49,598 bases of DNA, from positions 1 to 49,598 of the IMG/VR virus record IMGVR_UViG_3300017716_001243. One strand, 5' to 3'. This stretch comes from a virus. Its lineage: Duplodnaviria; Caudoviricetes. A model generated the notes under the pieces. The model did no database searches. It saw only the letters and a list, made by a program, of their open reading frames with translations, and was not told the origin of the DNA. The position numbers and the translations under genes are program-made. Position 1 is the stretch's first letter, and each line of letters starts with the position of its first letter. This document shows, one piece after another, positions 19,232 to 49,598 of this stretch.

Positions 19232-19272
19232 AAAAGGCCCACCTAGAGGAAACTCCGGGTGGGCCTTTTTTT
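19232..19272. terminator. Bidirectional rho-independent terminator between the convergent genome arms
   Basis: AAAA-GGCCCACC...GGTGGGCC-TTTTTTT. Confidence 0.9.
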
Positions 19273-42645: not shown

Positions 42646-42674
42646 ATTATAGCATATTTTAAAGACAAAGTCAA
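42646..42674 (-). promoter_or_regulatory. Sigma70 promoter heading the structural arm
   Basis: TTGACT-17 nt-TATAAT with extended TG. Confidence 0.8.
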
Positions 42675-43272: not shown

Positions 43273-43353
43273 AACTAGATGAGCCTCTAAGTAAGAGGGT
43301 GGCGGGAGCTATGTCTTAACCCCGAAACCCACTAGCTAGAGAAAGAACAACCC

Positions 43354-43571: not shown

Positions 43572-43615
43572 CCGCCCTTTTCCTTAGTGCCTCATCTAGC
43601 AATCACCGAAAGGAA
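43572..43615 (+). repeat. 44-bp direct repeat copy 1 (ends in the RBS)
   Basis: Identical to 43807-43850. Confidence 0.95.
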
Positions 43616-43806: not shown

Positions 43807-43850
43807 CCGCCCTTTTCCTTAGTGCCTCATCTAGCAATCACCGAAAGGAA
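43807..43850 (+). repeat. 44-bp direct repeat copy 2
   Basis: Identical to 43572-43615. Confidence 0.95.
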
Positions 43851-43856
43851 CAGACT

Positions 43857-44096
43857 ATGTATAACCCCGATTACACCGGCAAAGGTTCAATCCGAGTTGT
43901 CGAGTATAGTGAAGGTTCAATATCAGGGATTGTCGAGTATCTGTATAGGCTCGACTCTCGGCTTTCCCGTCTTATCGCTATTCGTCACGCTTTCTTTTCT
44001 GTCACCGTGGCCCTCAATCATGGGTACACTGTAACAGTTGAGGAAACAGACCCGGCCCTTACTTGGACTAGCGCCGACGGCCACACTTTCAATTAA
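43857..44096 (+). CDS. Early hypothetical protein
   Basis: 79 aa, AAGGA RBS. Confidence 0.7.
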   Translation: MYNPDYTGKGSIRVVEYSEGSISGIVEYLYRLDSRLSRLIAIRHAFFSVTVALNHGYTVTVEETDPALTWTSADGHTFN

Positions 44097-44107
44097 GGAA
44101 ACAAGTA

Positions 44108-44368
44108 ATGACTAACTATAAGCGTCCCCGTGACGGTAAAATGTATCTCTTTACTAACAAGCGTCCTAATGGCGAAGGCATACTAATGGCAACGCAAGGC
44201 GCTTTCCTCTTAGGGATGAGAGAATGTATCAACGGACGGCAAGGTTACGCTGCTATCTGTCCTCAAGATAATCCCTATTACGTAGGATGGCCGGAACATT
44301 CCGCTTGGCTTCGCGGCCTATTACTTGCGAACCGTCACGCATCCAGCCTCAAGCGCAACCGCTACTAA
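44108..44368 (+). CDS. Early protein with Rmf-like motif
   Basis: AF..G......G.........NPY.....H.AW.RG. Confidence 0.65.
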   Translation: MTNYKRPRDGKMYLFTNKRPNGEGILMATQGAFLLGMRECINGRQGYAAICPQDNPYYVGWPEHSAWLRGLLLANRHASSLKRNRY

Positions 44369-44378
44369 GGAACAGACT

Positions 44379-44513
44379 ATGTATAACTTCACCACTGAAG
44401 AATATGAGATGATCGAACGGTCCTTAGACTTGCAAGCCTTGTTGGATGCAAGTGACGACGGAATGACTATTGAAGAACAACACGACTTAGAGGCTTTCAT
44501 GGCGGGCGAATAA
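44379..44513 (+). CDS. Early acidic protein, 44 aa
   Basis: AAGGA RBS; 13 D/E versus 1 R. Confidence 0.7.
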   Translation: MYNFTTEEYEMIERSLDLQALLDASDDGMTIEEQHDLEAFMAGE

Positions 44514-44532
44514 CCCGCTATACAATACAGAC

Positions 44533-44568
44533 AACCCCCGTTGCTTCACCGCGCGGGGGTTTTTCTTT
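44533..44568 (+). terminator. Rho-independent terminator
   Basis: AACCCCCG...CGGGGGTT-TTTCTTT. Confidence 0.85.
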
Positions 44569-44658
44569 GTCCTGCGTCCTGTTATGTTATACCATGTCAA
44601 GCACCCTTGACAATATGTCAACCTCACTTGTCACCGATCACGATTGCGTGATTGGCCA

Positions 44659-44687
44659 TTGACTAATCTATCACGATCGGCTAACGC
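44659..44687 (+). promoter_or_regulatory. Putative alphaproteobacterial-type housekeeping promoter
   Basis: TTGACT-17 nt-TAACGC, with GCTA at the -10 as in the other promoters here. Confidence 0.5.
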
Positions 44688-44911
44688 GCGCGCCTGTTCC
44701 TTATCCCTCGCGTGAAAGGCTTTGCCGGGTGAAGCACTTTGTTAAATAAAGTGAAATCTGCCTTATTGTTGCCACGATTCCAGGGCTTATGGTCCTCGTT
44801 CCCGCCATATGGGAACGGGTTACCGGCCTTAGGGCCTTTAGCGCGAAGGGCATAGGGCCTAGACCGCGAAGGGACCGCTACAGGGTAACGGTTGAAAGGA
44901 TAGGTGAAGCT

Positions 44912-45319
44912 ATGGCCCGTAATAGGCCCGGCAAGCGTGAACGCCAGAACGCCACCCGCGACGCTTTCCAGCGTGAACGGGCCGCGATAATGGCTCGCAA
45001 TGCGCTTGAGGCGAAGCCGGTTAAATCGGTTCGCGTTCACCCCGATTGTGTAAAGGCATTGACCCTTATGGGGGCGGGCCGATACGTCGCCCCGAAAGGC
45101 CTTCGCAATTCGGTTCTAGCCCGCGATAGTCTCAAGTCCGCAAGCCATGATATCGGCTTTATCGGGCCGCGCGGCTATCACACACCAACGGACAAGGTTG
45201 GTAAGCGAGAGGCTGAAAAAGGTTTGCTCGCGTCATCACGTAGGACGCAGACGGAACGTCAAGAGGCGCTTGCACTAGCAGCCTCGGTCACGTTCAACCG
45301 TCCGACGCAAAAAGATTAG
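44912..45319 (+). CDS. Basic early protein with Arg-rich N-terminus
   Basis: AGGTGA RBS; MARNRPGKRERQNATRDAFQRER. Confidence 0.7.
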   Translation: MARNRPGKRERQNATRDAFQRERAAIMARNALEAKPVKSVRVHPDCVKALTLMGAGRYVAPKGLRNSVLARDSLKSASHDIGFIGPRGYHTPTDKVGKREAEKGLLASSRRTQTERQEALALAASVTFNRPTQKD

Positions 45320-45359
45320 GCCCGCCCTATTCGTGACACAATGTCACGTTATGGTGTGC

Positions 45360-45850
45360 CTTAGATGAGGGCTTAGGCTCTTGTCGTCCTACCTAGCGGG
45401 TAGCTAGGGCGGTTCCTCGCCGCAACAAGAGGGCGGGTTCTTACCCGTACCGCGACGCAAGCGGGCTGAATAGGTCAAGCAAGGTTTACCTTGTCTAGCC
45501 TAGAAGGTTCGTATCCCTTGGGGAGCGTAATGTGGTGCACGCAATCGGTAACGATTGACGTGATTAGGTTGTATAGGACCGGCGCGCGCCTTGGGCATTA
45601 TGCGTGACGACTATAGGACCACTGTAACGCCTTGTCCGTAACCCCCTATGGGAGCGGGAACGGGGCGACACAACAAGCAACCCTTACGCATGGCATAGGC
45701 TCGCACGGTACAGACACCGGGCGGGCTTTCGCCGTGCTATAGAGGGGTTGCTAGTGGTGAACGCATGGGGTTTTCGCCCCCATGTTAGGCAACGTCTATC
45801 ATAGCTCCGTGCGCTCACTCCTAGCAATCCTGCTAGGTTAAACCCATGCG
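45360..45850 (+). ncRNA. Putative large structured RNA of unknown family
   Basis: No ORF of 60 aa or more; about ten consecutive stems, some with G-U pairs in + orientation. Confidence 0.55.
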
Positions 45851-45883
45851 CTAAGTGCCCGTGGGAGGCTTAAGGAATAGGCT

Positions 45884-46621
45884 ATGAAAATCCAATCGGC
45901 AAAGGCGCTGAACGCCCGCATTGACGCGTTCGGCAAGGTCGTGCTGTCCACGCAACAGGAAGCCCAAGATATCGGCGTCCAGTGTCTCGCGCACTATGCG
46001 GAGCACGGCGACCTGACCCTGTTCGCGCGGTTCGTCGGCGGCAAGATCGGCAAGAAGGCCCCCAAGGACCGCAAATACACCATCACCGATGACTTCCCCG
46101 GCGTCTGCGGCGTCATGCGGAAGTCCATCGTGGCGTGGGCCGCGAAGTTCTCCGACCTGCGGTTCAACGGCGACGGCATGGTGTACCGCATGAACCGGGC
46201 CTCCGAATCCTTCAAGGTGTTTCACCCGACCATCGGCGGCGTGCTGTCCAAAGCCGGTCAGGCCGTCAACGTGGACATGGCGGAGGCCGATCCGTGGTAC
46301 GAAGGGGACGGTGCGAAGGCCCTTGCGGCCACCCGTCCGCTGGACCTGCTGAACCTCATCACCATCGCTGCGTCCATCAGCAAGCGGCTGGCCAAGGCCA
46401 AGGAGCAGGACGCGGAGGACGGCGGCGTCATCGTTCCGGGTCAGCTGGAAAAGATGGAAGCCTTCGCGGCGGCCATTGCGGCGGCCACGGCGGCCTTCGA
46501 GAAGAAGGAGAATGTCAACGTCGTCATGCTAGCCGCCGAACGTGAGGCCCGTGCCAAGGCCGCTGCTGCTGCCCCGGTCGTCGTGGACCGTGCCGCTGGC
46601 GCTGAAGTGGCCGCTGGCTAA
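45884..46621 (+). CDS. Early hypothetical protein, probably highly expressed
   Basis: 245 aa, strong GC3 bias, AAGGA RBS, H..EHGD.TL motif. Confidence 0.85.
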   Translation: MKIQSAKALNARIDAFGKVVLSTQQEAQDIGVQCLAHYAEHGDLTLFARFVGGKIGKKAPKDRKYTITDDFPGVCGVMRKSIVAWAAKFSDLRFNGDGMVYRMNRASESFKVFHPTIGGVLSKAGQAVNVDMAEADPWYEGDGAKALAATRPLDLLNLITIAASISKRLAKAKEQDAEDGGVIVPGQLEKMEAFAAAIAAATAAFEKKENVNVVMLAAEREARAKAAAAAPVVVDRAAGAEVAAG

Positions 46622-46903
46622 CTGTCAGCACTAGTTTCCCCTCGTGGTCGTCTCTGTGCGTCTATGGCCGTCCGTCATAGGGCCGCGAGGGGTCTCTTGT
46701 TCTGATAGGAGATTGCCAAGTGCGTTGACTGAACTCCTCTCGGGCCATTCCCCGACGTTAAAAGGCGACGTAACAGCCTAGCCCCTCATGCCATCACACG
46801 CCCGACTAGGCATTGACGCTAAGACCCAAGGGCACGCAGACAAACATATGGCTGGCATCATCCAAGCGGGGCGCACCCGTCTGCCCTTGTATGTGCGCGA
46901 GAG

Positions 46904-46940
46904 AGGCCGCCTGGGCGTAACAACCTGGGCGGCCTTTTCT
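46904..46940 (+). terminator. Terminator-like hairpin with GTAACA loop
   Basis: AGGCCGCC...GGCGGCC-TTTTCT. Confidence 0.65.
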
Positions 46941-47007
46941 ATTGACTTAATCTATCACGGTGTCGGGTGCTCGCCCGGCCTGTGAGGTGTGCTTAGTGGT
47001 GAACATA
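46931..47007 (+). repeat. 77-bp direct repeat copy 1
   Basis: Identical to 47131-47207 (200-bp period). Confidence 0.95.
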
Positions 47008-47103
47008 ATGAACTAGCTTATAGCCGCGAGGCTTAAAAGGGCAGGGGATGGCCTGAGCCGTAACTAGTATTTCCCCTAACTTGTATTTAGCGAAAAGCGA
47101 TCG

Positions 47104-47140
47104 AGGCCCGCCTGATGTAACAATCGGGTGGGCCTTTTCT
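47104..47140 (+). terminator. Terminator-like hairpin with GTAACA loop
   Basis: GGCCCGCCTGAT-GTAACA-ATCGGGTGGGCC-TTTTCT. Confidence 0.7.
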
Positions 47141-47207
47141 ATTGACTTAATCTATCACGGTGTCGGGTGCTCGCCCGGCCTGTGAGGTGTGCTTAGTGGT
47201 GAACATA
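47131..47207 (+). repeat. 77-bp direct repeat copy 2
   Basis: Identical to 46931-47007. Confidence 0.95.
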
Positions 47208-47418
47208 CAGTCCCTTGCAGCCGCAGCAGGCATTAATGGTCGGTAGCGAGTAAGTGGGTGGTCAAACCTGGACTTAACTCAACGACTGTATGTTCTCCTC
47301 TACGCATGCGGTTGATACGTGGGAATGTAGCACGTTAAAAATGGAAATGACGGTTAGCAACTGGCCGCCGGTTGAGCTAACTAGCCGTGTGCGTAGAACC
47401 TTTCAATGGAGAATACCA

Positions 47419-47691
47419 ATGATGAAGAAACTCACTGCTGCTGCCGTCGCCCTCGCCTGTCTCGCCGTGGCTGGTTGTCAAGTCACCGAGGCTGGACGTG
47501 CCAGTCGTGACGCCTACTATGGTGACAAGCCCGCTGCTGTCACCTGCTACGCCTACGGCACGCTTACCTTCGAGGGCACCAGCACCGGCAAGATCATCTA
47601 CGATGAGGGCGGTCGCCTGACCTTCGTGGACGCTGCCAACGGGCGTCTGACCACCATCGAGGGCGAGTGCCGGGTCATCTACGCGGCCTAA
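47419..47691 (+). CDS. Early lipoprotein
   Basis: MMKK, hydrophobic stretch, lipobox VAGC; GGAG RBS. Confidence 0.8.
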   Translation: MMKKLTAAAVALACLAVAGCQVTEAGRASRDAYYGDKPAAVTCYAYGTLTFEGTSTGKIIYDEGGRLTFVDAANGRLTTIEGECRVIYAA

Positions 47692-47695
47692 GGGC

Positions 47696-47724
47696 TTGAC
47701 AAAAGCCTGAATCCGTGCTACCCT
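47696..47724 (+). promoter_or_regulatory. Putative housekeeping promoter
   Basis: TTGACA-17 nt-TACCCT with extended TG. Confidence 0.55.
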
Positions 47725-47757
47725 ACTGTTACAGCCCCCGGTAAAGGATACCACAAG

Positions 47758-47880
47758 ATGTGCAATACACTCCACACCGCTGTCGTCTTCTGGACCATCG
47801 GCGGTGCCCTCGTGGTGGCTTCTGTCTCGCTGGCATTCATCGCCGTCAAGAAAGCCCTCGAAATGTGGGACATACTCTGA
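47758..47880 (+). CDS. Small membrane protein, 40 aa
   Basis: AAGGA RBS; single hydrophobic helix. Confidence 0.6.
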   Translation: MCNTLHTAVVFWTIGGALVVASVSLAFIAVKKALEMWDIL

Positions 47881-48059
47881 TGGCACGTCTATCACGCTGT
47901 CGCCAGAACCATCCCAACCCGACACCGGCACCAGCTGTGGTCGAAGTCCGGGAGGATGAGTACATCTTTGCCTCGGAATACCACTTCGATGTGGTGGTCC
48001 CGGGGGAAGAACGCACGAGAGCCCTGTCCGAGCATTTCGGCGCAGGTTTCTTGTCCTAG
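47880..48059 (+). CDS. Small hypothetical protein, 59 aa
   Basis: TGATG overlap; MARLSRCRQ... Confidence 0.55.
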   Translation: MARLSRCRQNHPNPTPAPAVVEVREDEYIFASEYHFDVVVPGEERTRALSEHFGAGFLS

Positions 48060-48060
48060 A

Positions 48061-48339
48061 ATTGCTGCTGTGCACCCCGGCTCCGTGGTTTATTCCAATT
48101 CAGCGCGGTTCGACCGGAGGCAGTAGTCGTCATGCGGGAGACGTTAAAAGCCCCGCTCTTTTTGTTGCAAGCGATTTATAATCGCGCATAAGACCGCAAG
48201 TGAACAGGTGGTGCTTGTCGTCATTCTGTAACCCGGCTCCGTGATTCCAACTTTTGTTGTCCGCCCTCTCCGGTCGGCGTGGCACATTTACAGGTGGTAA
48301 GTCGGAGGAGGTTGCTAGGTCGGCGCGTGGCACCTGTTC
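48061..48339 (+). ncRNA. Two further structured RNA domains sharing CCCGGCTCCGTG..ATTCCAA
   Basis: Stems 48061/48127 and 48202/48339. Confidence 0.45.
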
Positions 48340-48384
48340 TCTTTTTGTCTTATTAACAACCCTTAATCTTCGGAGAAGATTTCT

Positions 48385-48528
48385 ATGCGCTTCATCATCA
48401 CCCACGCCCGCTACGGAACCGCCGTTTCGGTTGACCTCCCGAGCCACTCCACGCGGGCCGATCGCAACCAAGTGCGGGCCATCCTGCGTAACGCCGAGCG
48501 GGGTCGTCTCGCTGGCCGGGACGAGTAA
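48385..48528 (+). CDS. Small hypothetical protein, 47 aa
   Basis: GGAG RBS; MRFIITHARYG... Confidence 0.6.
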   Translation: MRFIITHARYGTAVSVDLPSHSTRADRNQVRAILRNAERGRLAGRDE

Positions 48529-48658
48529 GTCCTGATGTTCCGTAACTATCTGATGCGAACCGTCAGCACCCAACCCATCCACGCTGCAGCCGGGAGGCTC
48601 TACGTTGTCAAACAGGAAGCACTTCAACTACGCGAGGGGCCACAGCCTTCGACTGAAG

Positions 48659-48856
48659 ATGTCGACGCAATGGGACTCGCTGCGGGCACGTAACTGGCTC
48701 GCATGGTTCCTGCTCAGCGCCGCTGTGGCTGCTGGCTGGCCATCTATCACAACTGTCGTCCTCTTCGTCCTCGTGGGTCTGCGTCTCGGCTTCGTGCTGG
48801 TGCGCTGGTTTGACACGATGCGACGGCGGGCCAAATGGAGAAAACAGTTTGCGTAA
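48659..48856 (+). CDS. Small membrane protein
   Basis: Two hydrophobic segments and a basic tail. Confidence 0.55.
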   Translation: MSTQWDSLRARNWLAWFLLSAAVAAGWPSITTVVLFVLVGLRLGFVLVRWFDTMRRRAKWRKQFA

Positions 48857-48974
48857 TCTGAAACAACTTGCCCCTGCCTTTTTGGCGGGGTTTTTTATTG
48901 CCCTGTTGGGCTTCGGTGTCATCATGATGCTGGCCGACACCGTTGCACGAATCGGAGCTGCCAATGGCGGATGA
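48849..48974 (+). CDS. Small membrane protein, 41 aa
   Basis: GGAG RBS then TTG; single hydrophobic helix. Confidence 0.45.
   Translation: MRNLKQLAPAFLAGFFIALLGFGVIMMLADTVARIGAANGG
48870..48899 (+). terminator. Terminator-like hairpin upstream of the middle genes
   Basis: CCCTGCC-TTTTT-GGCGGGG-TTTTTTATT. Confidence 0.55.
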
Positions 48975-49338
48975 TGTCTGGCATCGCATCTTGGCGTCCC
49001 ACTCGTCCTGCTGCGGCATCTATGTCCTGTCTGCCGTCCGGAACCCGCGTGAGGACGCCAATACGCAGTCCCTCAGCTACTATGGCAGTGGTTTCCCCGA
49101 TATGCCGCTCAACAGCGGCTGGCGGGCGTCCGAGTTCGACCACTCCAAGTGGGATGAAGCTATCGACGCCGTACCCAATCAACCGTACAACGTGGGTTGG
49201 AACTACCGCTTCAAAACGGAAAACCCCAAGGCCGGAATGCAACTGCTTCGGTTTGCTGCGCTCGATGAGGCCGTGCCGGAAGGTTTCACGGTGCTGGCCG
49301 AAAACTCCCACGGAAAACTGATCGGACGGGTGGCCTGA
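48964..49338 (+). CDS. Hypothetical protein (CCGI...GF family)
   Basis: GGAG RBS; CCGIYVL...EGFTVLAEN. Confidence 0.75.
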   Translation: MADDVWHRILASHSSCCGIYVLSAVRNPREDANTQSLSYYGSGFPDMPLNSGWRASEFDHSKWDEAIDAVPNQPYNVGWNYRFKTENPKAGMQLLRFAALDEAVPEGFTVLAENSHGKLIGRVA

Positions 49339-49598
49339 TGGTTGAATCAATCGAAGCTGAACCGTGTTTGCATCCGTCGGTCCTCGCTGTCTATTTCAGA
49401 GGTCTCTGTACGCATGGACCGACTGACGTCCGGATACGTGAGTACTACAAGGAGGCCACCAAAGCCTTCACCGACCGGTTCCCCCGAGAATTCCGGCCCG
49501 AGCCCGACACCATCTACAATGCGGCCTTGGCAGGGCATCAGAAGCACGTCTATGGCCCCGGGCTCGAGGCTGCTGGCTTCAAGCTGGTGCAGACCTCC
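49338..49598 (+). CDS. 5' part of the junction-spanning hypothetical protein (continues to 183)
   Basis: TGATG start; open through the terminal repeat. Confidence 0.8.
   Translation, partial: MVESIEAEPCLHPSVLAVYFRGLCTHGPTDVRIREYYKEATKAFTDRFPREFRPEPDTIYNAALAGHQKHVYGPGLEAAGFKLVQTS
49476..49598. repeat. Terminal direct repeat, identical to 1-123
   Basis: Exact identity. Confidence 0.95.

What the first reader, a model, noticed from the sequence alone, without database searches (positions are those of the whole stretch)
46625..47397. Back-to-back array of distinct 60-100-nt structured RNA domains in the early region
Seen: nearly all non-coding bases sit in closed domains. These are CCCCTCGTGGTC/GGCCGCGAGGGG (12 bp, 2 G-U), GCGTTGA/TTGACGC, CAAGGGCA/TGCCCTTG, ACTAG/CTAGT, GAACATACAGTC/GACTGTATGTTC (perfect 12 bp) and TCTACGCATGCGGTTG/TAGCCGTGTGCGTAGA (16 bp, 4 G-U), most with internal hairpins. 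Non-Watson-Crick positions in the closing stems are G-U only on the + strand, which points to RNA. Inference: a phage small-RNA arsenal located where anti-defence genes normally sit, acting as decoys, sponges, antitoxin mimics or put-like antiterminators. This is the best candidate here for an undescribed system.
Basis: partly seen in the sequence, partly recalled or inferred. Interest (0 to 1): 0.8.

Follow-up and report, generated by a model that had tools for sequence, protein, structure and literature searches.

The report
Swappable noncoding cassettes in phage early-region
An 800-base protein-free stretch in the early genes of an uncultured phage has conserved hairpins and terminator-like hairpins with non-coding pieces between them that differ from one related phage to the next; these pieces are likely cut out of the message as small RNAs, but neither the RNAs nor an anti-defence role is shown.

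Summary
Partly confirmed. The region is non-coding and folds on the + strand only (z -4.8 vs -0.8). Four of the six named stems hold in context; two do not, and about 280 nt fold no better than shuffles. Three complete relatives and six sequencing runs show a conserved scaffold (irregular stem A after the 245-aa gene, terminator, polar TCTATCAC motif plus hairpin, carrier stem E) whose non-coding cargo is replaced block by block. Cargo blocks stay about 95% identical where shared. Stem E matches the RNase III consensus well here (12/14) but weakly in relatives (8/14). Best reading: RNase III cuts and termination release accessory small RNAs, as for DicF, shuffled by recombination as at T4 PeSLs. 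Rival: plain mRNA processing and termination signals. No Rfam family, no tandem pseudoknots, no CRISPR-like similarity, no RNA data. Neighbouring elements (a 550-nt covarying RNA; a second cassette holding a tRNA-like RNA in one relative) strengthen the RNA-cluster picture. New variant of a known kind; interest 0.5.

The parts
45884..46621 (+). 245-aa early gene (phrog_1448, unknown function); its stop codon abuts the array, and RNase III-type stems bracket it on both sides
   Evidence: no fold match; stems at 45746-45830 and 46622-46708
46622..46708 (+). Carrier stem A: conserved irregular stem with a 3x3 pyrimidine loop; the top (46642-46688) is a two-hairpin junction here and a plain 19-24-nt hairpin in three relatives. 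Likely RNase III-type 3' processing site of the 245-aa mRNA
   Evidence: z -5.5; alignment A3; 95% of cells paired but only 1 two-sided change, 131/500 shuffles as high; consensus score 9, 7, 8, 8 of 14; top replaced in X2 and X10, kept in X4 and X16
46709..46903 (+).
   Evidence: z +1.4; 10-11 differences in 216 nt in X10 and X2, present in X16, absent from X4 and from the three complete relatives
46904..46943 (+). Intrinsic-terminator hairpin T1 (13-bp GC-rich stem, UUUUCUAUU tail)
   Evidence: Rfam e-value scan gave only sub-threshold hairpin hits here
46897..47007 (+). Copy 1 of the 111-nt direct repeat: terminator, TAATCTATCACG motif (46948-46959), hairpin m (46962-46979), 5' arm of carrier E (46990-47007, no partner arm)
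   Evidence: 89% identity; last 77 nt identical
47008..47099 (+). Cargo d: not structured overall; its 20-nt core (47020-47039, GNRA hairpin) is shared with the pre-terminator block of L039. Part of the 200-nt unit missing in relatives
   Evidence: z +0.55; local alignment p 0.005; joint 46902->47103 in X2, X10, X16
47104..47143 (+). Intrinsic-terminator hairpin T2; the most conserved element of the array; same base as the terminator near 19260
   Evidence: hairpin in 5 of 5 aligned copies with different stem sequences
47148..47186 (+). Polar motif TAATCTATCACG plus hairpin m, copy 2
   Evidence: hairpin in 4 of 5 copies; replaced by a small ORF in L039
47190..47306 (+). Carrier stem E with variable cargo; predicted RNase III double cut would release 47210-47288 (79 nt)
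   Evidence: inverted repeat I3; P 1.0; score 12/14 here, 8/14 in L001 and L002; unrelated cargo in L001, L002, X2, X4, X16; absent in L039 and X10
47299..47397 (+). Module f: 16-bp stem closing three hairpins; its 5' arm overlaps the 3' arm of E
   Evidence: z -4.3, P 0.93; kept in X4 (4 differences in 111 nt), absent in X16 and the complete relatives
47419..47691 (+). 90-aa lipoprotein-like gene with a ribosome-binding site; needs read-through of T1/T2 or an unrecognised promoter
   Evidence: covered in X2, X5, X10, skipped in X9
45310..45860 (+). Outside the finding: conserved ~550-nt structured non-coding RNA ending in carrier stem (i) with variable cargo
   Evidence: 55 of 172 RNAalifold pairs with a two-sided change, 4 sequences; no Rfam match
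48060..48353 (+). Outside the finding: second cassette; variable slot (pseudoknot here, tRNA-like RNA in L001) and carrier (iv) enclosing a 106-122-nt rod
   Evidence: consensus score 12/14 in 4 of 4 genomes

Best explanation
This is a non-coding cassette array in the early operon of a Zobellviridae-like lytic phage: conserved stems and terminator hairpins flank non-coding blocks that differ between relatives, likely exchanged by recombination, and host RNase III cleavage plus transcription termination would likely release those blocks as small accessory RNAs. Shown: non-coding, + strand folding, conserved scaffold, block-wise replacement, 200-nt insertion between repeats. Inferred step 1: host RNA polymerase reads from a promoter near 44790 through the 550-nt RNA and the 245-aa gene into the array. 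Inferred step 2: RNase III cuts stem A, finishing the mRNA and freeing a ~240-nt RNA (b+c) that ends at terminator T1, the DicF layout. Inferred step 3: read-through transcripts are cut at stem E, freeing a 79-nt cargo and leaving module f on the lipoprotein mRNA. Inferred step 4: homologous recombination at the conserved stems and the terminator-motif repeat shuffles the blocks, as at PeSLs. Inferred step 5: the open, sequence-conserved b+c RNA most likely acts by base pairing with host RNA, and the compact cargos by binding host proteins.
For: Scaffold conserved in 3 of 3 complete relatives while cargo differs. Mix-and-match in contigs: X4 = A + other middle + other E cargo + f; X2 and X10 = other A top + b,c + T2; X16 = A + b,c + T2 + other E cargo. 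b+c differs by 5% (11/216) in X2, against an estimated 0.2-0.25 per synonymous site in the adjacent gene (53 differences in 699 nt; 15 amino-acid changes and 152 synonymous sites; assumes P0001 is the X2 protein because both contigs are 7330 nt). A 75-nt two-hairpin block is shared by L002 and L039, and the d core by the window and L039. Only 2 of 262 well-paired registers on the + strand score 12/14 against the published RNase III consensus (PMC4357697, passage), namely E and (iv); 0 of 300 shuffles give two. A sibling slot holds a tRNA-like RNA in L001 (44 bits). Relatives' arrays fold at z -6.7, -5.1, -3.4 on +. DicF: 190-nt RNA made by RNase III from a polycistronic transcript (bioRxiv 2023.04.14.536235, passages).
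Against: No RNA data. The 12/14 threshold was chosen after seeing the data; at 10/14 and 15/20 pairs there are 65 hits on + and 76 on -. A scores 7-9 and E only 8 in relatives; 23 of 262 background registers reach 8. Covariation in A is not above shuffles. In 3 of 4 genomes the top of A is a plain hairpin, so A looks like an ordinary processing site. Cargo interiors fold only at z -1.1 to -2.4. E is missing in L039 and X10; L002's array folds as well on - (z -4.2). In X10 b+c is hardly more conserved than the gene overall (4.6% vs 5.3%), and recent recombination could also explain low divergence. The three complete relatives share an id prefix, so they are probably one data set. No host, no target.
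Confidence: 0.45

Rival explanations
1. Only cis-acting signals: A and E are T7-type RNase III sites that finish and stabilise early mRNAs, T1/T2 are attenuating terminators, and the blocks between them are tolerated left-overs of recombination at a PeSL-like repeat, with no action in trans.
For: A starts 1 nt after the stop codon and, with stem (i), brackets the 245-aa gene. T2 shares its base with the terminator near 19260. b+c and d fold no better than shuffles. The 200-nt unit is a repeat-bounded insertion. Internal loops can limit RNase III to one cut and leave a protective 3' hairpin (PMC1540722, passage). Structured gaps also occur in the early regions of PA11 and GP100 (5 of 6 gaps below z -2 on +).
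Against: About 2150 of 3871 nt between 44514 and 48384 lie outside the five ORFs I counted. E encloses 40-105 nt of non-coding cargo, not a gene. Cargo blocks are kept at about 95% between genomes whose neighbouring blocks are wholly replaced. A tRNA-like RNA fills a sibling slot.
Confidence: 0.35
2. The cargos are dedicated anti-defence mimics (CRISPR-repeat or guide mimics, type III antitoxin mimics, tRNA decoys), diversified by an arms race.
For: Early, hypervariable position and block-wise replacement. Such RNAs exist: pseudo-ToxI (PMC3594212, abstract and section 5), vsgRNA and rAcrIIA1 (two 2026 preprints, first part of each). The tRNA-like RNA in L001 has an atypical anticodon loop.
Against: No tandem repeat array; 1 pseudoknot candidate versus 1.8 in shuffles; no Rfam CRISPR, tracrRNA or antitoxin match; best plasmid and phage DNA matches E 3 or worse; no recognised Acr or anti-defence neighbour. 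Structure-only mimics would escape these tests.
Confidence: 0.12
3. Modules upstream of T1 are put-like or pairing antiterminators that let RNA polymerase read through T1 and T2 into the lipoprotein gene.
For: The 90-aa gene has a ribosome-binding site but no sigma-70 promoter was found between T2 and it. An AAAAGG stretch in b and in d could pair with the terminator's 3' arm (seen in the sequence; 6-7 bp).
Against: The blocks upstream of the terminator are not conserved in sequence or fold; a 6-7-bp helix cannot compete with a -27 kcal/mol hairpin; relatives without the lipoprotein gene keep the scaffold.
Confidence: 0.05

Closest known systems
DicF of the Qin prophage dicBF operon
   Same: Non-coding RNA of about 190 nt lying in a polycistronic phage transcript, 5' end made by RNase III (bioRxiv 2023.04.14.536235, passages); here stem A, ~195 nt, terminator.
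   Different: DicF is one conserved RNA with proven targets in a cryptic prophage. Here several unrelated, exchangeable blocks sit in a lytic phage; no sequence match (Rfam), no target known.
PeSL promoter/stem-loop cassettes of T4-type phages
   Same: About 100-nt repeated element with a terminator stem-loop in a hypervariable early region; recombination between copies inserts or deletes the unit between them (PMC2839356, passages; PMC4122927, first third).
   Different: No sigma-70 promoter or ribosome-binding site in the repeat; only two copies; the shuffled units are non-coding, not ORFans.
T7 early-region RNase III sites (intercistronic location recalled; enzyme rules from PMC1540722 and PMC4357697, passages)
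   Same: Irregular 15-18-of-20-bp stems with the distal AG/CU-type box, next to early genes.
   Different: E and (iv) close over 40-122 nt of multi-helix non-coding cargo instead of a short loop.
Phage RNA mimics: phiTE pseudo-ToxI, Racrs, vsgRNA, rAcrIIA1
   Same: Small non-coding phage RNAs in accessory regions (listing, 104, 105).
   Different: Those were found by similarity to the host RNA they mimic; none was found here, and there is no tandem pseudoknot array.

Membership tests
Intrinsic terminator (T1, T2) | GC-rich hairpin followed by a U-rich tract | tested here: met
   T2 flagged by the scan, T1 by folding; 7 U in 9 nt
RNase III substrate | Helix of at least about one turn | tested here: met
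   15-18 of 20 positions paired in A, E, (iv) in all genomes that have them
RNase III substrate | Match to the weak published consensus | tested here: inconclusive
   E 12/14 here but 8/14 in two relatives; A 7-9/14; (iv) 12/14 in 4 of 4; threshold post hoc
RNase III substrate | Cleavage by the enzyme | not testable with these tools
   no raw RNA reads were available
DicF-type processed sRNA | RNase III-type stem upstream, terminator downstream, non-coding body | tested here: met
   layout in 4 of 4 genomes; A-to-terminator spacer 197, 65 and 199 nt in window, L001, L002, about 200 nt in L039
DicF-type processed sRNA | Sequence homology to DicF | tested here: not met
   no Rfam match
DicF-type processed sRNA | Base pairing with a host mRNA | not testable with these tools
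   host unknown; one exact 18-nt scan of species genomes gave 1 match that did not extend
PeSL | Repeated element with terminator stem-loop acting as recombination anchor | tested here: met
   200-nt unit absent in X2, X10, X16
PeSL | sigma-70 promoter and Shine-Dalgarno within the repeat, ORFan cargo | tested here: not met
   no + strand promoter; only 2-16-codon frames behind SD-like words
Type III antitoxin mimic (pseudo-ToxI) | Tandem short repeats folding as H-type pseudoknots (tandem layout recalled) | tested here: not met
Racr / vsgRNA / rAcrIIA1 | Similarity to a CRISPR repeat or tracrRNA | tested here: inconclusive
   none in Rfam or plasmids, but the host's CRISPR loci could not be searched
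Racr / vsgRNA / rAcrIIA1 | Adjacent anti-CRISPR genes | tested here: inconclusive
   neighbours have no named PHROG or Pfam family; no Acr-specific library searched
put-like antiterminator | Conserved twin hairpins just downstream of a promoter (recalled) | tested here: not met
   no promoter directly upstream; upstream blocks not conserved
Known ribozymes and riboswitches | Rfam gathering score | tested here: not met
   0 of 7 e-value matches in 44000-49598 reach it

The most novel reading that the evidence does not exclude
This phage clade keeps an RNA-only accessory genome: interchangeable small-RNA cassettes are plugged into conserved RNase III carrier stems and terminators, drawn from a population pool like anti-defence genes, cut out early in infection and aimed at host defence or regulatory proteins; together with the 550-nt RNA and the second cassette this would be an undescribed phage RNA arsenal.
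Probability: 0.25. Interest if true: 0.8.

Novelty: new variant of a known kind. Interest (0 to 1): 0.5.

Why it matters
Hypervariable early regions of lytic phages are mined for anti-defence proteins, and their non-coding DNA is usually ignored. If carrier stems release swappable RNAs, the stem signature gives a direct way to find phage small RNAs without knowing what they mimic, and each cargo is short enough to test alone. If the rival holds, it is still a clear case of PeSL-like shuffling of non-coding blocks in a podovirus.

Tried and rejected
No RNA holder listed among 24 runs; three runs labelled RNA-Seq were contigs and flagged as guesses, so they say nothing on expression. I laid 6 of the 24 runs. 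DNA search of 44500-49598 in 50,697 phage records: no match. Metagenome scan returned only L003, the window's own sequence; species-genome scan found no relative. Pattern scans added no new relative: of 17, 9 and 14 loci, 3 each were the known relatives and the rest were treated as chance and dropped. The d core occurred in 12 viral loci: 1 known relative; the 10 others I displayed are one unrelated family where it reads as the antisense of a gene end, so rejected. Small-protein reading rejected: SD-led frames of 1-16 codons only, and changes in b+c are not third-position biased in the 65-codon frame at 46788 (my reading). Covariation count on the terminator alignment was uninformative because my structure string was out of register with gapped stems; replaced by one-by-one folding. 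Profile searches of 76 distant loci (nhmmer) and a model of stem A over 30 sources found nothing outside the close clade. The 245-aa protein gave no Pfam, Atlas or PDB function. Pistol, twister, hammerhead and HDV-like folds were considered by eye (recalled) and have no Rfam support. TAATCT as a -10 box rejected: no -35 or extended -10 in register. Literature searches found no description of this layout or of Zobellviridae non-coding RNAs; the library lacks most subscription papers, and preprint supplements, which may list more mimic RNAs, were not seen.

Full report
Context. The window is a complete, circularly permuted phage genome (the start recurs at 49476). Structural genes run on the - strand from about 42.4 kb down to 19.5 kb; amidoligase, primase/helicase, DNA polymerase and reductase genes run on +. 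The terminase is 62-65% identical to those of Lentibacter, Celeribacter and SIO1 phages, and the ligase cluster is PA11-like (PA11 is filed under Zobellviridae). The finding lies in the early region, between a 245-aa gene of unknown function (45884-46621) and a 90-aa lipoprotein-like gene (47419-47691). The host is unknown.

Observation. All six arm pairs exist. In context a, c, e and f form (P 0.89-1.00); b and d do not (P 0.00). The 799-nt region folds at z -4.77 on + and -0.80 on -. That signal comes from A (-5.5), two terminators (-5.6, -6.9), two copies of a small hairpin (-4.7, -4.2), E (-3.8) and f (-4.3); b+c (+1.4) and d (+0.55) are at chance level. A 111-nt direct repeat with 200-nt spacing contains the terminator, a TAATCTATCACG motif, the small hairpin and the 5' arm of E. 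Nothing reaches an Rfam threshold, there is no tRNA, and only 1-16-codon frames follow SD-like words.

Relatives. Eight viral scans gave three complete relatives with the early region (L001, L002, L005/L039; handles G001-G003), whose ids share a prefix. All three keep stem A and the terminator plus motif; two keep hairpin m and carrier E. What lies on top of A, between A and the terminator, and inside E is different in each. L039 has a small ORF after the motif instead of m and E. Contigs from six runs add closer relatives. X2, X10 and X16 go straight from 46902 to 47103, so T1-m-d is an insertion between repeats. X2 and X10 keep b+c but replace the top of A. X4 keeps A and f but has other sequence in the middle and inside E. 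X16 keeps A, b, c and has a diverged E cargo and no f. Shared blocks differ by 2-5%, neighbouring blocks are unalignable: this is block exchange, not drift. In X2 b+c differs at 11 of 216 sites against roughly 0.2-0.25 per synonymous site in the adjacent gene (the link between P0001 and X2 is inferred from equal contig length), which suggests purifying selection, though recent exchange could mimic it. Distant relatives share pieces too: a 75-nt two-hairpin block (L002, L039) and the 20-nt d core (window, L039). Nothing was found outside this clade.

RNase III signature. The carriers share a purine-G-U / U-C-pyrimidine box with a U-U mismatch. Against the published weak consensus (PMC4357697, passage), a lenient scan is unspecific (65 hits on +). 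At 12 of 14 positions and 17 of 20 pairs, only E and the downstream carrier (iv) remain; 2 of 300 shuffles gave one hit and none gave two; 2 of 262 well-paired registers score 12. The cut-off was chosen afterwards. In fixed register A scores 9, 7, 8, 8; E scores 12, 8, 8; (iv) scores 12 in all four. So (iv) is a good candidate, E a fair one and A a modest one. Covariation in A is not above shuffles; the terminator hairpin forms in 5 of 5 copies with different stems.

Mechanism. The simplest model that covers everything: one early transcript is cut at A, which finishes the 245-aa mRNA (bracketed by stems (i) and A) and frees a ~240-nt RNA ending at T1. This is the layout by which the 190-nt DicF is made (bioRxiv 2023.04.14.536235, passages). 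Read-through RNA is cut at E, freeing a 79-nt cargo. Recombination at the conserved stems and at the terminator repeat shuffles blocks, as described for PeSLs (PMC2839356, passages; PMC4122927, first third), although this repeat has no sigma-70 promoter. An open but conserved b+c fits a base-pairing RNA; compact cargos fit protein binding. All of this beyond the sequence comparison is inference. I put 0.45 on it, 0.35 on cis-only signals with tolerated filler, 0.12 on dedicated defence mimics and 0.05 on antitermination.

Antitoxin mimic: no tandem array, one pseudoknot candidate against 1.8 in shuffles; pseudo-ToxI read from PMC3594212 (abstract, section 5). CRISPR mimics (vsgRNA, rAcrIIA1; first part of each preprint; Racr paper seen only in a listing) were found by similarity to host RNAs; none was seen in Rfam, plasmids or phages, but the host could not be searched. 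A 2025 review of phage sRNAs (PMC12197685, passages) showed no such array in the passages seen. No neighbour is a recognised anti-defence protein.

Wider picture. About 2150 of the 3871 nt from 44514 to 48384 lie outside the five ORFs counted. Upstream lies a conserved 550-nt RNA with 55 of 172 predicted pairs showing two-sided changes in four sequences (the structure was derived from the same alignment). Downstream lies a second cassette whose variable slot is a pseudoknot here and a tRNA-like RNA in L001. These are better-conserved RNA candidates than the finding itself. The TCTATCAC motif is the most strand-skewed 8-mer of the genome (9 vs 0) and is skewed the same way in the three relatives (7:2, 10:1, 12:1; reversed control 0-2); half of its copies lie inside genes, so I read it as a polar DNA signal, not an RNA part.

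Earlier scan notes. None exists for this genome or sequence. Notes on other genomes describe similar RNase III-punctuated arrays; one pointed me to DicF. They are unchecked leads, not support.

Verdict. A real, modular, non-coding array, partly made of ordinary terminators and processing stems. The swappable non-coding cargo is the unusual part; searches found no description of it. New variant of a known kind, interest 0.5; the arsenal reading has probability about 0.25 and would deserve 0.8.

Noticed in passing
window 45310-45860 (L001 4430-4990, L002 4405-4990, L005 6610-6060 reversed): Conserved ~550-nt multi-helix non-coding RNA, 80% mean column identity, many two-sided changes, no Rfam match; a stronger new-RNA candidate than the finding itself.
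   Followed up: partly
window 48060-48353; L001 6937-7009: Second cassette: invariant 21-nt core complementary to the apical loop of a downstream rod; variable slot holds an H-type pseudoknot here (48128-48156) and a tRNA-like RNA with an atypical anticodon loop in L001; carrier (iv) scores 12/14 for RNase III in all four genomes.
   Followed up: partly
window 43797, 44667, 45795, 46951, 47151, 47888, 48743, 1339, 2736, 12364, 25699: TCTATCA(C/T) occurs 11 times on + and never on -, densest in the first ~9 kb after the presumed left end; in relatives the few reverse copies lie near the presumed terminus. Chi-like protective or recombination signal, or a phage-factor site (ideas recalled, untested).
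   Followed up: partly
window 43572-43615 and 43807-43850; inverted partner 43275-43304: Exact 44-nt direct repeat before two small early genes; both copies can pair with one upstream arm, which would clamp the genes in a stem.
   Followed up: no
window 44800-44900: Run of small hairpins with a 23-nt tandem duplication just after a candidate early promoter (44766-44793, by eye).
   Followed up: no
window 47696-47724 and 42646-42674: Conserved TTGACA-17-TACCCT promoter lacking the -7 T restarts early transcription (by eye; conserved in L001, L005), and a near-consensus sigma-70 promoter faces the late genes.
   Followed up: no
L002 6800-7260: Pentapeptide-repeat gene occupies the slot after the array in this relative (seen).
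   Followed up: no
L067 574-1569 and 2034-2103 (phage GP100): A 1-kb gene-free, structured gap and an annotated pseudo-tRNA in the early region of another Zobellviridae phage; non-coding RNA clusters may be family-wide, without sequence similarity.
   Followed up: partly
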